Source: Trypanosoma brucei (Eukaryota). From it: 64,000 nt of DNA. Under the pieces are notes generated by a model. It was given only the letters and a program-made list of their open reading frames with translations. It did no database searches and had not been told where the DNA came from. Shown here piece by piece: positions 55,451 to 60,046 of the stretch. Each line of letters opens with the position of its first letter. Positions within the stretch are counted from its first letter, which is position 1. The DNA is taken from assembly GCA_000002445.1 (NCBI GenBank), contig CM000208.1:2816001-2880000 (forward strand), written 5' to 3'. The position numbers and the translations under genes were made by a program.

Positions 55451-56233
55451 ATGTCTGTTTCCCCCAAGCGGAGCCTGCAGGCGTCACATTCCTCCACTTT
55501 TGTCGGAAAGACGGTGCCGTCATATGTACTTTCACCAGTTATTGAGCAGCACCATCTGCTTTGGCAGTGGCGCACGGTGCTTTGGCGGAAGCGGCTTCAT
55601 GCCGTGCCTTTTCTTCTTCACTGGGCACCGGGCGTCCCTGCAAAACAGCCCTTTCTTCACCACACAACTGCTGAACTTATTCTCACATCAGGTCAAGAGG
55701 TGGCATCGGCACCTGCAGCAGCAAACTACCGGAATTCACCGCACCGTTTCGGCGAGCTTATTGTTCCATCACCCGCTGGAGGTCTTCATGCAACGATTTC
55801 AGGACAAGCGGGAGAAGTACACCCCCTGACACGATGGGTAGACGATTTGTTCGATTTCCCACAGCAGAGTGCGATACCAGGTGAGGCAGTGGTTAATCAT
55901 GAAGAGAGCATAAGCTCTACCGATTCATGGAGACACGTGCCGTCAATTTATCACAATGTTGTTGGATGTGGTTTGGCGGAACTAATCTTGGCCGTTGACC
56001 GGCTTGCAGCATTGCTTGCACGGCGACACATAACATTGGCTAATGCGTGCTGGGCTGTTTTAGCTGACAGCAAGGCGGATCTCAAACCGTTTTTGCGGTA
56101 CAGTGCCTTGGATATTGAGCGAGAAGTACTCGTAATGGCAAAGGCACATGAAATGATAAATGTTTCACTGGGCGATGCCATGAGGCGACCGCTTTTAACA
56201 ATTGAAGATTATCCATCGATGGCCGGATGGTAG
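55451..56233 (+). CDS. hypothetical protein
   Basis: Track start 55412 is TTG; the first ATG is at 55451 (MSVSPKRS...); ~260 aa. Coding-like composition. No family assigned. Confidence 0.4.
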   Translation: MSVSPKRSLQASHSSTFVGKTVPSYVLSPVIEQHHLLWQWRTVLWRKRLHAVPFLLHWAPGVPAKQPFLHHTTAELILTSGQEVASAPAAANYRNSPHRFGELIVPSPAGGLHATISGQAGEVHPLTRWVDDLFDFPQQSAIPGEAVVNHEESISSTDSWRHVPSIYHNVVGCGLAELILAVDRLAALLARRHITLANACWAVLADSKADLKPFLRYSALDIEREVLVMAKAHEMINVSLGDAMRRPLLTIEDYPSMAGW

Positions 56234-57354
56234 TGGCGAGTGTTTACAACAGTGTCGGGGTCGTGTCTGATGATTGTCTCGCTCATATTAACCTCTTGGG
56301 TGCGCTTATTGTTTCCCTCTCTCCATCAACTACTATTTCATATTGTCTTCATTGACTTTTGGTCAAAGTTTGTCAGTTTGTTTTTATTTTGTTTTCCGGA
56401 AAGGAAATATACGAATGCCTGTGGAGGTGTGTGTGTGTATGTGTACGTCCTTTTCTTTCTTAACATCACCATGCTGCAACTCTGGAAAATGAGTATGGTT
56501 GCAAGCGATTACTTTTATTCGTTTCTGTTTTCCGTTTCCTCACGGATGTGTGTCAGCTCAAAACCTCCCCATTTCCTATCGGTTTGAGCGTTGTAAATTC
56601 TTATCGTCCCGTGTGTTCCTTTTTAGTTTGAAGTCACAGCACTCTCCGTGGTCGTTTTGTTCCTTCGCTTCATTAATTTTTTTCATTTTTTTTTTTGGAT
56701 TGTTTGGATCCGCACAAGGCAAGAGGCAAATTGAAAATGCAAACATGGGAGGGTGTGGTACCTTCCACGCAACACGAGACTCTGTAGTTGGTGTTCGAAC
56801 GATTTAGTCAATCTCTATAGTTATTACGTACTTTTTCCCCTTTCCATCCGATGTCTTTTGCTGTCGTTGTTTTCAAAAATACAAAAGGACAGAATTATAG
56901 GTTCAATAACGGAAGGAAAGTTTGTGAATGCAGCAAAGGCAAGATATGTGAACGAGCTTCAACCACAGAGGTGCTATAAATTTAGGAGGCTGCAGGGCGC
57001 AAGCTGGCGCTTTCTCTTTCCTAAGAGGAGAAGGGAGCGCTCCATGTGACGCCAAACAAAAAGTTCATTCACTCCCGTTCGCATCCTGTGTGATTCCCTT
57101 TCTAACAAAACCGTGCACGTGATGAGAGTATGTTCTTTCTATATACTGATTTGTCCATTGAAGTACACAGATACATATTCATAGACTGTCGTTTCCCTGA
57201 CCGCATTTCCACCGGTTTTCCCCCTCTTTGGATGGATTGATTCGATAAATCTTTCTGTTGTGGTCTTTTCCACACCCCTGCGTTACATGTACCATGCAGC
57301 TTGCTGTTGAGCTGCATCGAAGTGGGATGAAACACTTGAGAACTGTTGTGGCTT

Positions 57355-57455
57355 ACGTACCTTTAGCTGCGTACTTCTCGCTTCTCACTACTCATTCCTC
57401 CGTATCTTCTGCTTTACCTCTCGCTCTTTAAAATCCACACTGCCAGAAACAACGA
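57355..57455 (+). promoter_or_regulatory. polypyrimidine tract plus AG upstream of the first RRM gene: candidate trans-splicing signal, duplicated at 58392..58492
   Basis: cgtacctttagctgcgtacttctcgcttctcactactcattcctccgtatcttctgctttacctctcgctctttaaaatccacactgccag. Both copies are identical. Confidence 0.45.
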
Positions 57456-57502
57456 AACCGTTTAAGCGGGACAAACTAATTAATTTTGTGGGAATTGCCA
57501 GT

Positions 57503-57853
57503 ATGCCACCGCGGGCTCGACTTTTTGTTGGGCAGCTAAACTTTGACGCAACCGAAGATGACATATATGCACTTTTTGATTTCTACGGGAAAGCCCTTCA
57601 TGTCAATATACTTCGTGACAAGGAGACACAAAAAAGCAAAGGCAGCGCCTTCGTGGAATATGGAAGTACGGAGGAGGCAGATTGTGCCATTCTCGCGCTT
57701 CACAACCGCTACAATATGGAGCGCGAAAAACCGCTTCAAGTGTCTTATTGTAACAAGTCCGAGTTGATATCCGAGTTTGGCAGGGATCATGCCTCGAAGT
57801 TACACGACGAGAACCCTGCGAACCCCGCCCCACCACAACGTGTTCAACGGTGA
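57503..57853 (+). CDS. RBP7A: small single-RRM RNA-binding protein, copy 1 of a tandem pair
   Basis: Track start 57488 is GTG; the ATG is at 57503 (MPPRARLFVGQLNF...). RNP2 LFVGQL and RNP1 KGSAFVEY present; 116 aa. I did not recognise the symbol from the sequence; it comes from remembered synteny (beta-HBDH-like SDR about 16 genes upstream, MAPK about 5 genes upstream, tandem small RRM pair, as on T. brucei chr10). Treat it as tentative. Confidence 0.7.
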   Translation: MPPRARLFVGQLNFDATEDDIYALFDFYGKALHVNILRDKETQKSKGSAFVEYGSTEEADCAILALHNRYNMEREKPLQVSYCNKSELISEFGRDHASKLHDENPANPAPPQRVQR

Positions 57854-58539
57854 CTAGCTGAGGGAGTAGCTTATATTGTTAATATATGAATAGCAGTTGA
57901 GATATACCGCTAATGACTATGTACTTGGTTCTGGAATTTGACGATATATTTTCCCAATTGTAGCGCTTCTGCTTCTGTGGTTGGATTTCTTATCTTATAT
58001 TTGCGTGATATCACTATCTTAATCGTGAGGAGGGCTAATCTTCCGGCGTTGAGATGGGTACTTGTGTTATCGATGCATGCTGCGGTTACTCCTCACCAGT
58101 TGCTAACAAATAACACCGCGGAACAGAAACAATGATCGACCTTTTTCTTTCCTCCTGTACATGGGAATTAGACTGCATGTAATGGGTTTAATGTTGAATC
58201 TTGTACGTGTCTCTGTGTAGGAGGGCGGTGTTCGAAAGAGATTTGCTCCTCTAACAACACATATATGTGTTTTTCTCGTTCTAAAATCTTTCTGTTGTGG
58301 TCTTTTCCACACCCCTGCGTTACATGTACCATGCAGCTTGCTGTTGAGCTGCATCGAAGTGGGATGAAACACTTGAGAACTGTTGTGGCTTACGTACCTT
58401 TAGCTGCGTACTTCTCGCTTCTCACTACTCATTCCTCCGTATCTTCTGCTTTACCTCTCGCTCTTTAAAATCCACACTGCCAGAAACAACGAAACCGTTT
58501 AAGCGGGACAAACTAATTAATTTTGTGAGAATTGCCAGT

Positions 58540-58890
58540 ATGCCACCGCGGGCTCGACTTTTTGTTGGGCAGCTAAACTTTAACGCAACCGAAGATGACA
58601 TATATGCACTTTTTGATTTCTACGGTGATGTGCTGCACGTTAATATACTTCGTGACAAGGACACACGAAAAAGCAAAGGCAGCGCCTTCGTGGAATATGG
58701 AAGCACGGTGGAAGCGGACTTCGCCATCCTCGGACTTCACAACCGTTGCAACACGGGACACAGAAAACGACTTCAGGTGTCTTATTGTAACAAGTCCGAG
58801 TTAATATCAGATTTTGGAAGGGATCATGCCTCGAAGTTACACGACGAGAATCCTGTGAACCCCGCCCCACCACAACGTGTGCAACGTTGA
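58540..58890 (+). CDS. RBP7B: small single-RRM RNA-binding protein, copy 2 of a tandem pair
   Basis: Track start 58525 is GTG; the ATG is at 58540; 116 aa. About 15 aa differ from copy 1, clustered in the RRM loops (KALH/DVLH, EEADCAILALHNRYNMEREKP / VEADFAILGLHNRCNTGHRKR). The termini are identical. Symbol tentative, on the same basis as RBP7A. Confidence 0.7.
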   Translation: MPPRARLFVGQLNFNATEDDIYALFDFYGDVLHVNILRDKDTRKSKGSAFVEYGSTVEADFAILGLHNRCNTGHRKRLQVSYCNKSELISDFGRDHASKLHDENPVNPAPPQRVQR

Positions 58891-59692
58891 TTAGCTGAGG
58901 GAAGTGCGACTTTTTTCACTTGGTATTGCTCTTTTTTTTTTTGTGGAAGTGAACTTCGTGTGCTAAACGGCTGTTATCACTCGCTTACGGGCGTGGGCGG
59001 AAAATACTGAAGGCAGCCCGCGCCACCAAACTTGGGGGGGAGCAACGCTGCAAACTATCGGGTTGGTTTTATTGGGTGTGTTTACAGTCCATTGCGCACT
59101 AAAAGTTGCTGGTGTGTATGCTTGTGGAGAGTACAGCTCATTATTAAATGATGCCACTGCATTGCTGGTGCTTTTGTATGCACGCGTCTGTATGTGGAAG
59201 TTGTTTTATGTGGATAAAACAAGGGAAGGAATCCCCTATTATGTACAAACGAACCGTGACTTTCTTGGTTGCTGAAATGGTCAACATAAATTGTTGAATT
59301 TTTTTTGTTCCTATTCTCCTAACTAACACACTACTGTGTGAAAGGATGAACTATACTTTAGATGGTTTTTATTACACCCTTGTGGTTGAAGAATGGCTGA
59401 CCTGTGTGGTATGCATGTCACGGGTATCACGGGCTTCAATTGGCACACATAATAGTCATTTTATGCAAGAGTCGAACTTAGTTACTCTTTCCTTATCTCC
59501 ACCCTGTCACCGCGTTTTTCATCATTTGTTTTTTTTTTGGCTGCATCCTGGTCGTTACCGTTGATGCCAAAGGTAAGCACCAAAGAAAATAGGACACAAC
59601 TAACCGCGTGTATTTACCAGCACACATACACTTCGCGCAGAGGGGTCAATTTTCTGGATTTGTACTAGACTCAAAACAGGTAAGTTAGACTC

Positions 59693-60046
59693 ATGTCGCA
59701 ACGGGGTTCCGCTGTCCATCGCACTCGTTCTCCCGATACGACAGATGATCGTGACTGCACTCGCCTTCGAACGGAGGGGTGGTCTGAAGATGTTAGTTTG
59801 TACAAAACACATCCCTTCACTTTAGCCTCGCAGGGAACCACGAATGGGGATGGCCTCACTGAAGGGGAACTCTACATTCAGTTGTGCAAGACTCCAGGCG
59901 GTAGTGAGCGACTTCCACCAGGATGGGAGAAGGTGTTATACGAAGGGGCGGTTGTTTACCTCGATCACATTTCTCGTGAAGCTCATGAAGTGCCGCCGTG
60001 GGAAGTGTGGCGTAAGCGGAGTGGTGCTGCAGCTTCATCTGCTTGA
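59693..60046 (+). CDS. small hypothetical protein with a WW-domain-like segment
   Basis: ATG start, 117 aa. LPPGWEKVLYEGAVVYLDHISREAHEVPPW resembles the WW consensus LPxGWE ... YYxNHxT ... TxWxxP. The tryptophans are 25 residues apart, slightly longer than typical. Weak. Confidence 0.3.
   Translation: MSQRGSAVHRTRSPDTTDDRDCTRLRTEGWSEDVSLYKTHPFTLASQGTTNGDGLTEGELYIQLCKTPGGSERLPPGWEKVLYEGAVVYLDHISREAHEVPPWEVWRKRSGAAASSA

What the first reader, a model, noticed from the sequence alone, without database searches (positions are those of the whole stretch)
57248..58920. Tandem RRM-gene duplication whose non-coding 5' flank is more conserved than its coding sequence
The two ~1037-bp units share a 5' flank of ~255 nt with 1 mismatch, including the polypyrimidine/AG trans-splicing region and the first ~40 codons. 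The middle of the RRM instead has ~15 amino-acid replacements out of 116, concentrated between RNP2 and RNP1 and in the alpha2/beta4 region; the two copies differ here at KALH/DVLH, DKETQK/DKDTRK, EEADCAILALHNRYNMEREKP/VEADFAILGLHNRCNTGHRKR. This is the opposite of the usual pattern for duplicates. It suggests either recent gene conversion limited to the 5' region or positive/relaxed selection on the RNA-contacting loops, producing two paralogues with different RNA specificity. If these are RBP7A/RBP7B (tentative), they are implicated in quorum-sensing-driven stumpy differentiation, which would make the divergence of functional interest.
Basis: seen in the sequence. Interest (0 to 1): 0.6.

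Follow-up and report, generated by a model that had tools for sequence, protein, structure and literature searches.

The report
RBP7A/RBP7B: partial gene conversion of duplicates
Two neighbouring trypanosome genes for a small RNA-binding protein that controls a life-cycle switch keep their shared upstream region almost identical by copying it from one gene to the other, while the second gene's protein core has drifted away from a form conserved in all relatives; the copying mechanism is ordinary for this parasite, but the divergence of the second gene is overlooked.

Summary
The window is T. b. brucei TREU927 chromosome 10. The two ORFs are exactly RBP7A (57503-57853) and RBP7B (58540-58890).

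Only a 620-nt block is duplicated (57247-57866 vs 58284-58903). The 3'UTRs are unrelated. The 256-nt 5' flank has 1 mismatch, against 41/348 in the CDS (16/116 residues).

The cause is concerted evolution of the 5' block:
- Synonymous divergence is 0.05 in codons 1-29, 0.77 in codons 30-80 and 0.31 in codons 81-116.
- In three T. brucei subspecies genomes, six flank sites differ between strains in both copies at once.
- All 39 informative sites downstream group by paralogue.
- The flank is the most strain-variable segment (about 3%), so purifying selection does not explain its identity.

Positive selection is not shown: omega is about 0.18, and no sub-window exceeds 1. Divergence is strongly one-sided. 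With T. congolense as outgroup, RBP7B has 13 unique changes and RBP7A none. Four RBP7B changes hit loop-5 residues invariant in 29 other trypanosomatid homologues. RNP1 and RNP2 are intact.

Flanks less diverged than CDS were already described for T. brucei tandem arrays (Jackson 2007). This is a new instance of a known process in known genes.

The parts
57247..57866 (+). Duplicated block, copy A: 5' flank, RBP7A CDS and 13 nt after the stop codon.
   Evidence: Offset-1037 identity profile and blastn: 93% over 619 nt, with no third copy in the window.
58284..58903 (+). Duplicated block, copy B: 5' flank, RBP7B CDS and 13 nt after the stop codon.
57247..57588 (+). Homogenised (gene-converted) segment of copy A: 256-nt flank plus codons 1-29. 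Strain-specific sites shared by both copies span 57289-57436. The paralogue-specific site 57545 (D15N) limits the most recent tracts to 57544 or earlier.
   Evidence: 2 mismatches in 342 nt; maximum chi-square breakpoint at 57589. Site patterns: 6 sites group by strain and 1 by paralogue.
58284..58625 (+). Homogenised segment of copy B.
57367..57431 (+). Polypyrimidine-rich tract (about 80% C+T) upstream of RBP7A. The first downstream AG is at 57445-57446 and is the predicted trans-splice acceptor. An identical copy lies at 58404-58468, with its AG at 58482-58483.
   Evidence: Composition scan. The function is inferred from general trypanosome mRNA processing and was not mapped here.
57503..57853 (+). 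RBP7A (Tb927.10.12090) CDS: 116 aa, single RRM. This is the ancestral-like copy.
   Evidence: Pfam RRM_1 E=4.5e-17. Exact match to XP_823414.1. Primers. No unique changes against T. congolense.
58540..58890 (+). RBP7B (Tb927.10.12100) CDS: 116 aa, single RRM. This is the derived copy.
   Evidence: Pfam RRM_1 E=8.7e-17. Exact match to XP_823415.1. 13 unique changes; Y70C, M72T, R74H and P77R fall at otherwise invariant sites.
57589..57742 (+). Divergent core of the RRM (codons 30-80: beta2, loop 3, beta3, alpha2, loop 5). It matches 58626-58779 in RBP7B. Identity is 79.7%.
   Evidence: 31/153 differences, dS 0.77, dN 0.137, omega 0.18. All differences but two (57625 and 57630, which vary among the RBP7B copies) are fixed across three strains. 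Secondary structure from the AF2 model.
57867..58283 (+). Unique RBP7A 3'UTR and intergenic segment. It is unrelated to the sequence downstream of RBP7B (58904 onward).
   Evidence: blastn with word size 7 finds nothing significant.
56882..57318 (+). grumpy lncRNA, placed approximately by published primers. Its major and longest isoforms end inside the duplicated block, so its last 30-70 nt are repeated at 58284-58355, upstream of RBP7B.
   Evidence: Primer mapping. Isoform lengths 359, 397 and 432 nt from PMC9200285. The end positions are inferred.
57113..57204 (+). snoGRUMPY (TB10Cs'2C1) C/D snoRNA. It is single-copy and ends about 43 nt upstream of the duplication boundary, so it is not part of the repeat.
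   Evidence: Primers at 57115-57135 and 57180-57199. C box GTGATGA at 57119 and D box CTGA at 57197, read from the sequence. No Rfam model matched.

Best explanation
This is the RBP7A/RBP7B tandem pair of Trypanosoma brucei. The duplication is old. Repeated non-reciprocal exchange between the two copies (interlocus gene conversion or unequal sister-chromatid exchange) keeps the 5' part of the repeat homogenised. That part holds the polyadenylation zone of the upstream transcript, the polypyrimidine tract, the splice acceptor, the 5'UTR and the first 10-29 codons.

Exchange stops where the copies become too different, at codon 30. Downstream, the copies evolve independently. RBP7A stays in the ancestral form. 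RBP7B has accumulated replacements in helix alpha2, in the alpha2-beta4 loop and in loops 1 and 3.

The two genes therefore share processing signals, 5'UTR and N-terminus. They have unrelated 3'UTRs, which fits their reported opposite regulation during stumpy formation, and different peripheral RRM surfaces.

Shown here: the mosaic of divergence, concerted evolution across strains, and the one-sided divergence. Inferred: the molecular mechanism of exchange, the position of the splice site, and any functional consequence of the RBP7B changes.
For: (1) Synonymous divergence is mosaic: dS 0.05 in codons 1-29, 0.77 in codons 30-80 and 0.31 in codons 81-116. The flank is 0.4% diverged. The breakpoint lies at 57589 with permutation p<0.0005.

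(2) Concerted evolution across TREU927, T. b. equiperdum and T. b. gambiense. In 57247-57588, six sites separate TREU927 from the other two in both copies at once, two more do so partly, and only one site is paralogue-specific. In 57589-57866, 39 sites are paralogue-specific and none is strain-specific. The equiperdum A and B flanks are 256/256 identical, and the gambiense flanks differ at 3 sites.

(3) The flank is not unusually constrained. TREU927 vs equiperdum differ at 8/256 (flank A) and 9/256 (flank B), against 2/457, 3/417 and 2/351 in adjacent unique DNA and in the RBP7A CDS.

(4) Relative-rate test with T. congolense as outgroup: A-unique 0, B-unique 13, p=2.4e-4. RBP7B alone changes 4 of the 35 positions that are invariant in 29 other homologues.

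(5) T. grayi and T. vivax also carry two tandem type-1 copies that are 97-99% alike within each species. T. congolense has two consecutive accessions with an identical protein. This fits long-term concerted evolution of an old pair.

(6) Jackson 2007 documents the same behaviour in other T. brucei tandem arrays.
Against: - Only three T. brucei-group assemblies were available, and each is a haplotype mosaic of a diploid. Allelic recombination could contribute to the flank haplotype pattern.
- The age of the duplication is not fixed.
- It is unresolved whether conversion stops at codon 30 because of selection or simply because 20% mismatch blocks heteroduplex formation.
- The intermediate dS of codons 81-116 could reflect an older conversion or chance.
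Confidence: 0.85

Rival explanations
1. The duplication is young, and the 0.4% flank divergence gives its true age. The coding core diverged fast because of positive selection for a new RNA specificity in RBP7B.
For: Replacements cluster in loops 1, 3 and 5 and in alpha2, and all fall on the RBP7B lineage. RBP7B also shows more amino-acid polymorphism among strains (residues 41, 43, 84 and 102) than RBP7A (residue 108 only).
Against: - Synonymous sites in the same region are highly diverged (dS 0.77; pS 0.74 in codons 57-77), which selection on the protein cannot produce.
- Omega is 0.18, and no sub-window exceeds 1.
- The flank shows strain-specific variants shared by both copies, so it has been homogenised after the strains split and does not date the duplication.
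Confidence: 0.05
2. The flank is nearly identical because it is a strongly constrained functional element, such as processing signals, a regulatory RNA or part of grumpy. Exchange between the copies plays no role.
For: The flank holds the polypyrimidine tract, the AG and the 5'UTR, and it overlaps the 3' end of the functional lncRNA grumpy.
Against: - Between strains the flank is the most variable segment of the locus, about 3% against 0.4-0.7%.
- The same substitutions appear in both copies.
- There is no Rfam match.
- The flank has no detectable similarity to the T. grayi or T. vivax loci.
- The snoRNA lies outside the repeat.
Confidence: 0.04
3. Assembly artefact: the repeat was collapsed or one flank was copied onto the other during assembly.
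For: Tandem repeats are prone to collapse in assemblies.
Against: Three separate genome assembly records (TREU927, DAL972 GCA_000210295.1, T. equiperdum GCA_003543875.1) show the same 1037-bp spacing, the same boundaries and the same core differences. Each has its own few A/B flank differences.
Confidence: 0.02

Closest known systems
RBP7A (Tb927.10.12090) and RBP7B (Tb927.10.12100) of T. brucei, regulators of quorum-sensing-driven stumpy formation (PMC4403954, PMC6034907; original screen cited there as Mony et al.)
   Same: The sequences are identical to the TREU927 proteins, and published primers map to them. The arrangement is tandem, downstream of grumpy/snoGRUMPY and Tb927.10.12080.
   Different: Nothing differs in identity. 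The literature I could read calls them 'two almost identical genes' and mostly treats them as one unit: joint RNAi, a joint null mutant, and overexpression of RBP7B only. The one-sided divergence of RBP7B and the converted 5' block are not described there.
Concerted evolution by partial gene conversion in T. brucei tandem gene arrays (Jackson 2007, BMC Evol Biol 7:54, PMC1855330)
   Same: Both show non-coding regions that are invariant or less diverged than the CDS (that paper's arrays Tb24, Tb62a and Tb93), conversion tracts that span start codons and UTRs, and different histories for CDS and UTRs.
   Different: I found no mention of this two-copy array in the passages of that paper returned by my term searches. 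Here only the 5' flank is shared and the 3'UTRs are wholly unrelated. The unconverted part shows strongly one-sided protein divergence.
ELAV/CELF/Sxl-type RRM domains (best fold match CELF1 RRM1 bound to GU-rich RNA, PDB 3nnh; best sequence match Sxl RRM2)
   Same: Canonical beta-alpha-beta-beta-alpha-beta fold, with intact RNP2 (LFVGQL) and RNP1 (KGSAFVEY). Foldseek rmsd is 0.7 A over 83 columns. phmmer E=7e-18.
   Different: The protein has a single RRM plus a predicted C-terminal helix at residues 91-103. Its loop 5 (NRYNMEREKP), which is conserved in all 29 other homologues of the set, is specific to this kinetoplastid family. RNA targets are unknown.
Classical mosaic paralogues with a converted 5' segment (for example the human fetal globin pair); cited from general knowledge, not tested here
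   Same: A sharp boundary separates a homogenised 5' segment from an older, diverged 3' segment in a tandem pair.
   Different: The organism differs, and genes here are expressed polycistronically, so the homogenised part carries RNA-processing signals rather than a promoter.

Membership tests
RNA recognition motif (Pfam PF00076, RRM_1) | Profile match above the gathering threshold, with RNP2 and RNP1 motifs present. | tested here: met
   RBP7A scores 62.1 bits and RBP7B 61.2 bits against a cut-off of 20.7. LFVGQL and KGSAFVEY are identical in both copies. The AF2 model has the b1-a1-b2-b3-a2-b4 order, pLDDT 88.
T. brucei RBP7A/RBP7B locus | Protein sequences identical to the annotated TREU927 genes. 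| tested here: met
   Exact look-up gives XP_823414.1/Q389D4 and XP_823415.1/Q389D3.
T. brucei RBP7A/RBP7B locus | Genomic context: downstream of Tb927.10.12080 and grumpy/snoGRUMPY, with gene-specific primers matching. | tested here: met
   All 18 published primers map in the expected order.
Interlocus gene conversion / concerted evolution | Within the tract, paralogues in one genome are more alike than orthologues between genomes. | tested here: met
   In block 1, A-B distance within a strain is 2, 2 and 5, against 7-10 between TREU927 and the other two strains. Six sites have pattern 001111.
Interlocus gene conversion / concerted evolution | Adjacent segments give conflicting phylogenies, with a significant breakpoint. 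| tested here: met
   Block 2 has 39 sites with pattern 010101 and none grouping by strain. Maximum chi-square breakpoint at 57589, p<0.0005.
Interlocus gene conversion / concerted evolution | Neutral (synonymous) divergence differs between segments. | tested here: met
   dS is 0.05, 0.77 and 0.31 in the three CDS segments.
Interlocus gene conversion / concerted evolution | Direct observation of a non-reciprocal transfer event: donor unchanged, copy number unchanged. | not testable with these tools
   This needs pedigrees, clonal lines or population long reads. Unequal crossing-over cannot be told apart from conversion here.
Positively selected paralogue (adaptive neofunctionalisation) | dN/dS above 1 on the branch or at a class of sites. 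| tested here: not met
   Pairwise omega is 0.18 overall and in the core. Codons 70-77 give dN 0.49 against dS 1.6. A branch-site test was impossible, because there was no T. congolense DNA and dS against other outgroups is saturated.
Asymmetrically evolving duplicate (one conserved copy, one accelerated) | Significant relative-rate difference against an outgroup. | tested here: met
   Tajima-type counts are 0 vs 13 with T. congolense (p=2.4e-4), 1 vs 11 with T. melophagium and 1 vs 9 with T. vivax.

The most novel reading that the evidence does not exclude
Selection actively protects RBP7B's divergent alpha2/loop-5 surface against a conversion process that is still homogenising the adjacent 5' block. 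On this reading RBP7B is a neofunctionalised regulator specific to the T. brucei group, since T. congolense keeps two identical copies. It would have a partner or RNA preference different from the ancestral RBP7A, and it would be wired to opposite developmental regulation through its unrelated 3'UTR.

A second, weaker reading concerns the end of the RBP7A transcript. Because the duplicated block starts in the polyadenylation zone, grumpy lncRNA and RBP7A mRNA would end in the same 30-70-nt sequence. That could contribute to their reported joint up-regulation in stumpy forms.
Probability: 0.2. Interest if true: 0.6.

Novelty: new member of a known kind. Interest (0 to 1): 0.35.

Why it matters
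RBP7 is one of the few RNA-binding proteins shown to be required for the slender-to-stumpy transition that controls trypanosome virulence and transmission. The field has treated RBP7A and RBP7B as near-identical and interchangeable.

The analysis shows three things:
- RBP7A is the conserved, ancestral-type protein.
- RBP7B, the copy used in overexpression and rescue experiments, carries four replacements at positions invariant in the 29 other homologues compared, which range from Trypanosoma to Leishmania and Phytomonas.
- The two genes share processing signals and 5'UTR by ongoing homogenisation but have unrelated 3'UTRs.

This gives concrete swap experiments to separate the two proteins' roles.

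It also flags practical cross-reactivity. Several published grumpy and RBP7A primers, and the 3' end of grumpy itself, match two places in the locus.

As evolutionary biology, it is a clean small example of partial concerted evolution, not a new principle.

Tried and rejected
- **grumpy as a decayed relic of the older 'type-2' RRM paralogue.** That paralogue sits at the same position in T. vivax and T. grayi. tblastn of six homologues against the whole window at E<=10 found nothing in 56200-57500. Rejected at this sensitivity.
- **Residual similarity between the two 3'UTRs, or between the sequences upstream of the two flanks.** None found.
- **A known structured RNA in the flank.** Rfam at E<=1 over 56300-59700 gave no match. 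snoGRUMPY itself has no Rfam model.
- **Cross-species conservation of the flank or UTRs in T. grayi, T. vivax or an unidentified Logan contig.** None, apart from a 30-nt match of the snoRNA 3' half in T. vivax.
- **T. congolense DNA for a branch test.** The protein is not in the contig index.
- **Exact look-up of the window's RBP7B protein.** Also not in the contig index, although the cluster look-up identified it.
- **Polarising synonymous changes with T. grayi, T. vivax or the Logan contig.** pS is 0.8-0.95, which is saturated and unusable.
- **RBP7B as a converted orthologue of the type-2 paralogue.** Rejected. It carries the type-1 signature residues (LHVNILRD) and none of the type-2 signatures.
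- **Parallel C61F difference between the two T. grayi copies as evidence for an ancient A/B split.** Only one of three T. grayi differences coincides, and site 61 is variable in the family. Too weak to use.
Full report
**What is there**

The region holds two 351-nt ORFs on the + strand, at 57503-57853 and 58540-58890, spaced 1037 nt apart. Both are single-RRM proteins: Pfam RRM_1, E=4.5e-17 and 8.7e-17.

An exact-sequence look-up identifies them as XP_823414.1/Q389D4 and XP_823415.1/Q389D3 of T. b. brucei TREU927. Published qPCR primers for RBP7A and RBP7B map to copies 1 and 2. Primers for Tb927.10.12080, grumpy and snoGRUMPY map immediately upstream in the expected order. The window is T. 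brucei chromosome 10.

**Checking the observation**

At offset 1037 the two copies are homologous only over 57247-57866 (620 nt). Both ends of the homology are abrupt.

- The 256-nt 5' flank has a single mismatch, at 57491.
- The CDS has 41/348 nucleotide and 16/116 amino-acid differences.
- The rest of each 1037-nt period shows no detectable similarity. These are the RBP7A 3'UTR/intergenic region 57867-58283 and the sequence after RBP7B. The sequences upstream of the two flanks are also unrelated.
- The unevenness is highly significant. Flank vs CDS gives p=1.3e-9, and flank vs synonymous sites gives p=2.6e-15. The maximum chi-square breakpoint is at 57589, and 0 of 2000 permutations reached it.

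The near-identical stretch runs into the first 29 codons, not about 40.

**Why the flank is more alike than the CDS**

*1. Synonymous divergence is a mosaic.* dS is 0.05 in codons 1-29, 0.77 in codons 30-80 and 0.31 in codons 81-116. Codons 57-77 are close to saturation, with pS 0.74. Selection on the protein cannot raise synonymous divergence. The core is therefore old, and the 5' block has been made young.

*2. The cross-strain test shows concerted evolution.* I fetched the locus from T. b. equiperdum (L001) and T. b. gambiense DAL972 (L005).

- In 57247-57588, six sites (57289, 57361, 57369, 57370, 57409, 57436) separate TREU927 from the other two genomes in both copies at once. Sites 57305 and 57313 do so partly. 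Only 57545 (D15N) is paralogue-specific.
- In 57589-57866, 39 sites are paralogue-specific and none groups by strain.
- The equiperdum A and B flanks are 256/256 identical. The gambiense flanks differ at three sites.
- At least one exchange between the copies has therefore happened since these lineages split.
- The strain-specific sites put the recent tract(s) at a minimum of 57289-57436. The tracts extend no further than 57544 in TREU927 and 57531 in the other two.

*3. Constraint is not the cause.* Between TREU927 and equiperdum the flank differs at 8/256 and 9/256 positions. Adjacent unique DNA differs at 2/457 and 3/417, and the RBP7A CDS at 2/351. The flank is the most strain-variable part of the locus. 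That fits fixation of alternative paralogous variants by conversion. It does not fit purifying selection.

**The coding divergence is one-sided**

Pairwise omega is 0.18, overall and in the core, and no sub-window exceeds 1. Positive selection is not demonstrated.

- With T. congolense as outgroup, RBP7A has 0 unique residues and RBP7B has 13 (p=2.4e-4). Other outgroups point the same way.
- RBP7A is identical to the T. congolense protein from residue 44 to 85.
- In a 32-sequence alignment, 35 positions are invariant among the 29 other trypanosomatid homologues. RBP7B alone changes four of them: Y70C, M72T, R74H and P77R. RBP7A changes none.
- Among strains, RBP7B varies at residues 41, 43, 84 and 102. 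RBP7A varies only at residue 108.
- RBP7B is intact in all three genomes, and its omega is well below 1. It is reported to drive stumpy formation when overexpressed and to rescue the RBP7AB null mutant (PMC6034907). It is therefore functional.

Whether its changes reflect relaxed constraint or adaptation is open.

**Where the changes lie**

An AlphaFold2 model built on the alignment (pLDDT 88) gives these elements:

| Element | Residues |
|---|---|
| beta1 | 5-10 |
| alpha1 | 18-26 |
| beta2 | 31-38 |
| beta3 | 45-53 |
| alpha2 | 56-66 |
| loop 5 | 67-78 |
| beta4 | 79-82 |
| extra C-terminal helix | 91-103 |

The best solved fold match is CELF1 RRM1 bound to GU-rich RNA (3nnh, rmsd 0.7 A). 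The best sequence matches are the Sxl RRMs.

| Location | Changes in RBP7B |
|---|---|
| Loop 1 | D15N |
| Start of beta2 | K30D, A31V |
| Loop 3 | E41D, Q43R |
| alpha2 (i, i+4, i+8, so one helical face) | E57V, C61F, A65G |
| Loop 5 | Y70C, M72T, E73G, R74H, E75R, P77R |
| C-terminal part | E91D, A106V |

RNP2 and RNP1 are untouched. In canonical RRMs (general knowledge), loops 1, 3 and 5 lie at one end of the sheet and often modulate RNA specificity. The alpha2 face points away from the RNA and often binds proteins. Nothing can be said about actual contacts without a complex structure.

**Wider context**

The locus is syntenic in other trypanosomes: the Tb927.10.12080 orthologue (seen in the T. 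vivax locus), then RRM genes, then a small WW-domain gene (seen in the T. grayi locus).

- T. grayi and T. vivax carry an older 'type-2' paralogue upstream, followed by two tandem type-1 copies that are 97-99% identical within each species.
- T. congolense has two consecutive accessions with an identical protein.
- In T. grayi the shared block again runs from about 290 nt upstream of the ATG to the stop codon. There the flank is slightly more diverged than the CDS, which is the usual pattern.

This fits an old tandem pair under long-term concerted evolution, with T. brucei RBP7B as the copy that has escaped downstream of codon 30. Independent duplications are not excluded.

**Functional reading (inferred)**

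The duplicated block starts inside the zone where grumpy is polyadenylated. Isoforms of 359, 397 and 432 nt starting near 56882 would end near 57240, 57278 and 57313. The block also contains the polypyrimidine tract (about 57367-57431) and the first AG (57445).

The homogenised module is therefore the coupled polyadenylation and trans-splicing unit, together with the 5'UTR and the N-terminus. The unrelated 3'UTRs fit published data: RBP7A and grumpy rise in stumpy forms and RBP7B falls (PMC9200285), and RBP7B mRNA is cell-cycle regulated in slender forms.

**Comparison with what is known**

Jackson 2007 (PMC1855330) surveyed T. brucei tandem arrays. He reported arrays whose non-coding regions are invariant while the CDS is diverged, different histories for CDS and UTRs, and conversion tracts that span start codons and UTRs. 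The pattern is therefore typical for this organism, and the mechanism is known.

What I did not find in the literature I could search is the specific description of this locus. Reviews call the genes 'almost identical' (PMC4403954).

**Verdict**

- The positive-selection half is not supported as stated. It should be replaced by 'one-sided divergence of RBP7B, cause unresolved'.
- This is a new instance of a known process in known genes. It has modest general interest and some practical value for people working on stumpy differentiation.

Noticed in passing
window 57251-57271 / 58288-58308; 57300-57318 / 58337-58355; 57515-57535 / 58552-58572: Three published primers each match two places, because they lie in the duplicated block: the grumpy II reverse primer, the grumpy overexpression reverse primer and the RBP7A forward primer. 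The last 30-70 nt of grumpy are repeated just upstream of RBP7B. Probes, RNAi or LNA reagents aimed at the grumpy 3' end could therefore also hit the end of the RBP7A transcript.
   Followed up: partly
window 57113-57204; L004 4689-4718: The C/D snoRNA snoGRUMPY is single-copy and ends about 43 nt before the duplication boundary. Its 3' half has a 30-nt, 83% match about 300 nt upstream of the first type-1 RRM gene of T. vivax (E=0.002). The snoRNA position therefore appears conserved. It has no Rfam family.
   Followed up: partly
L002 45-410; L004 3498-3860; window 56200-57500: T. grayi and T. vivax have a third, older RRM paralogue ('type 2', signature LSVNLLHD...AIRSLHNRYFMER) between the Tb927.10.12080 orthologue and the type-1 copies. 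T. brucei has no such gene at that position, where grumpy lies, and no T. brucei or T. congolense type-2 protein appeared in the homologue search.
   Followed up: partly
L003 7349-7755: T. vivax has an unannotated second type-1 copy that is 98.8% identical to the first over 408 nt. Homology starts only about 21 nt before the ATG. The copy has an indel near the start and no in-frame ATG at the corresponding position, so it is possibly a pseudogene or uses another start.
   Followed up: partly
L002 1454-1810 vs 2325-2681: The two T. grayi type-1 copies differ at only three residues. One is the same C-to-F difference in helix alpha2 (T. brucei residue 61) that separates RBP7A from RBP7B, and another is the adjacent exposed position 64. 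This could be parallel change or an old paralogue-specific difference.
   Followed up: partly
window 57294-57317 (and 58331-58354): There is a perfect 8-bp inverted repeat, ATGCAGCT-N8-AGCTGCAT, inside the shared block near the longest grumpy 3' end. The strain variant at 57313 would break one pair, so conservation of the stem is doubtful. It was read by eye and not folded.
   Followed up: no
window about 56430, 56694-56780 and after 58943, compared with L001: The ungapped alignment of TREU927 with T. b. equiperdum loses register at these points. This indicates indels, including one in the T-rich tract around 56680-56700 and one in the poly-T tract after RBP7B (58935-58945).
   Followed up: no
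window 59693-60046: The downstream 117-aa ORF contains a WW-like motif (LPPGWEKVLYEGAVVYLDHISREAHEVPPWEVW). It is conserved and syntenic in T. grayi (L002 3314-3640).
   Followed up: no
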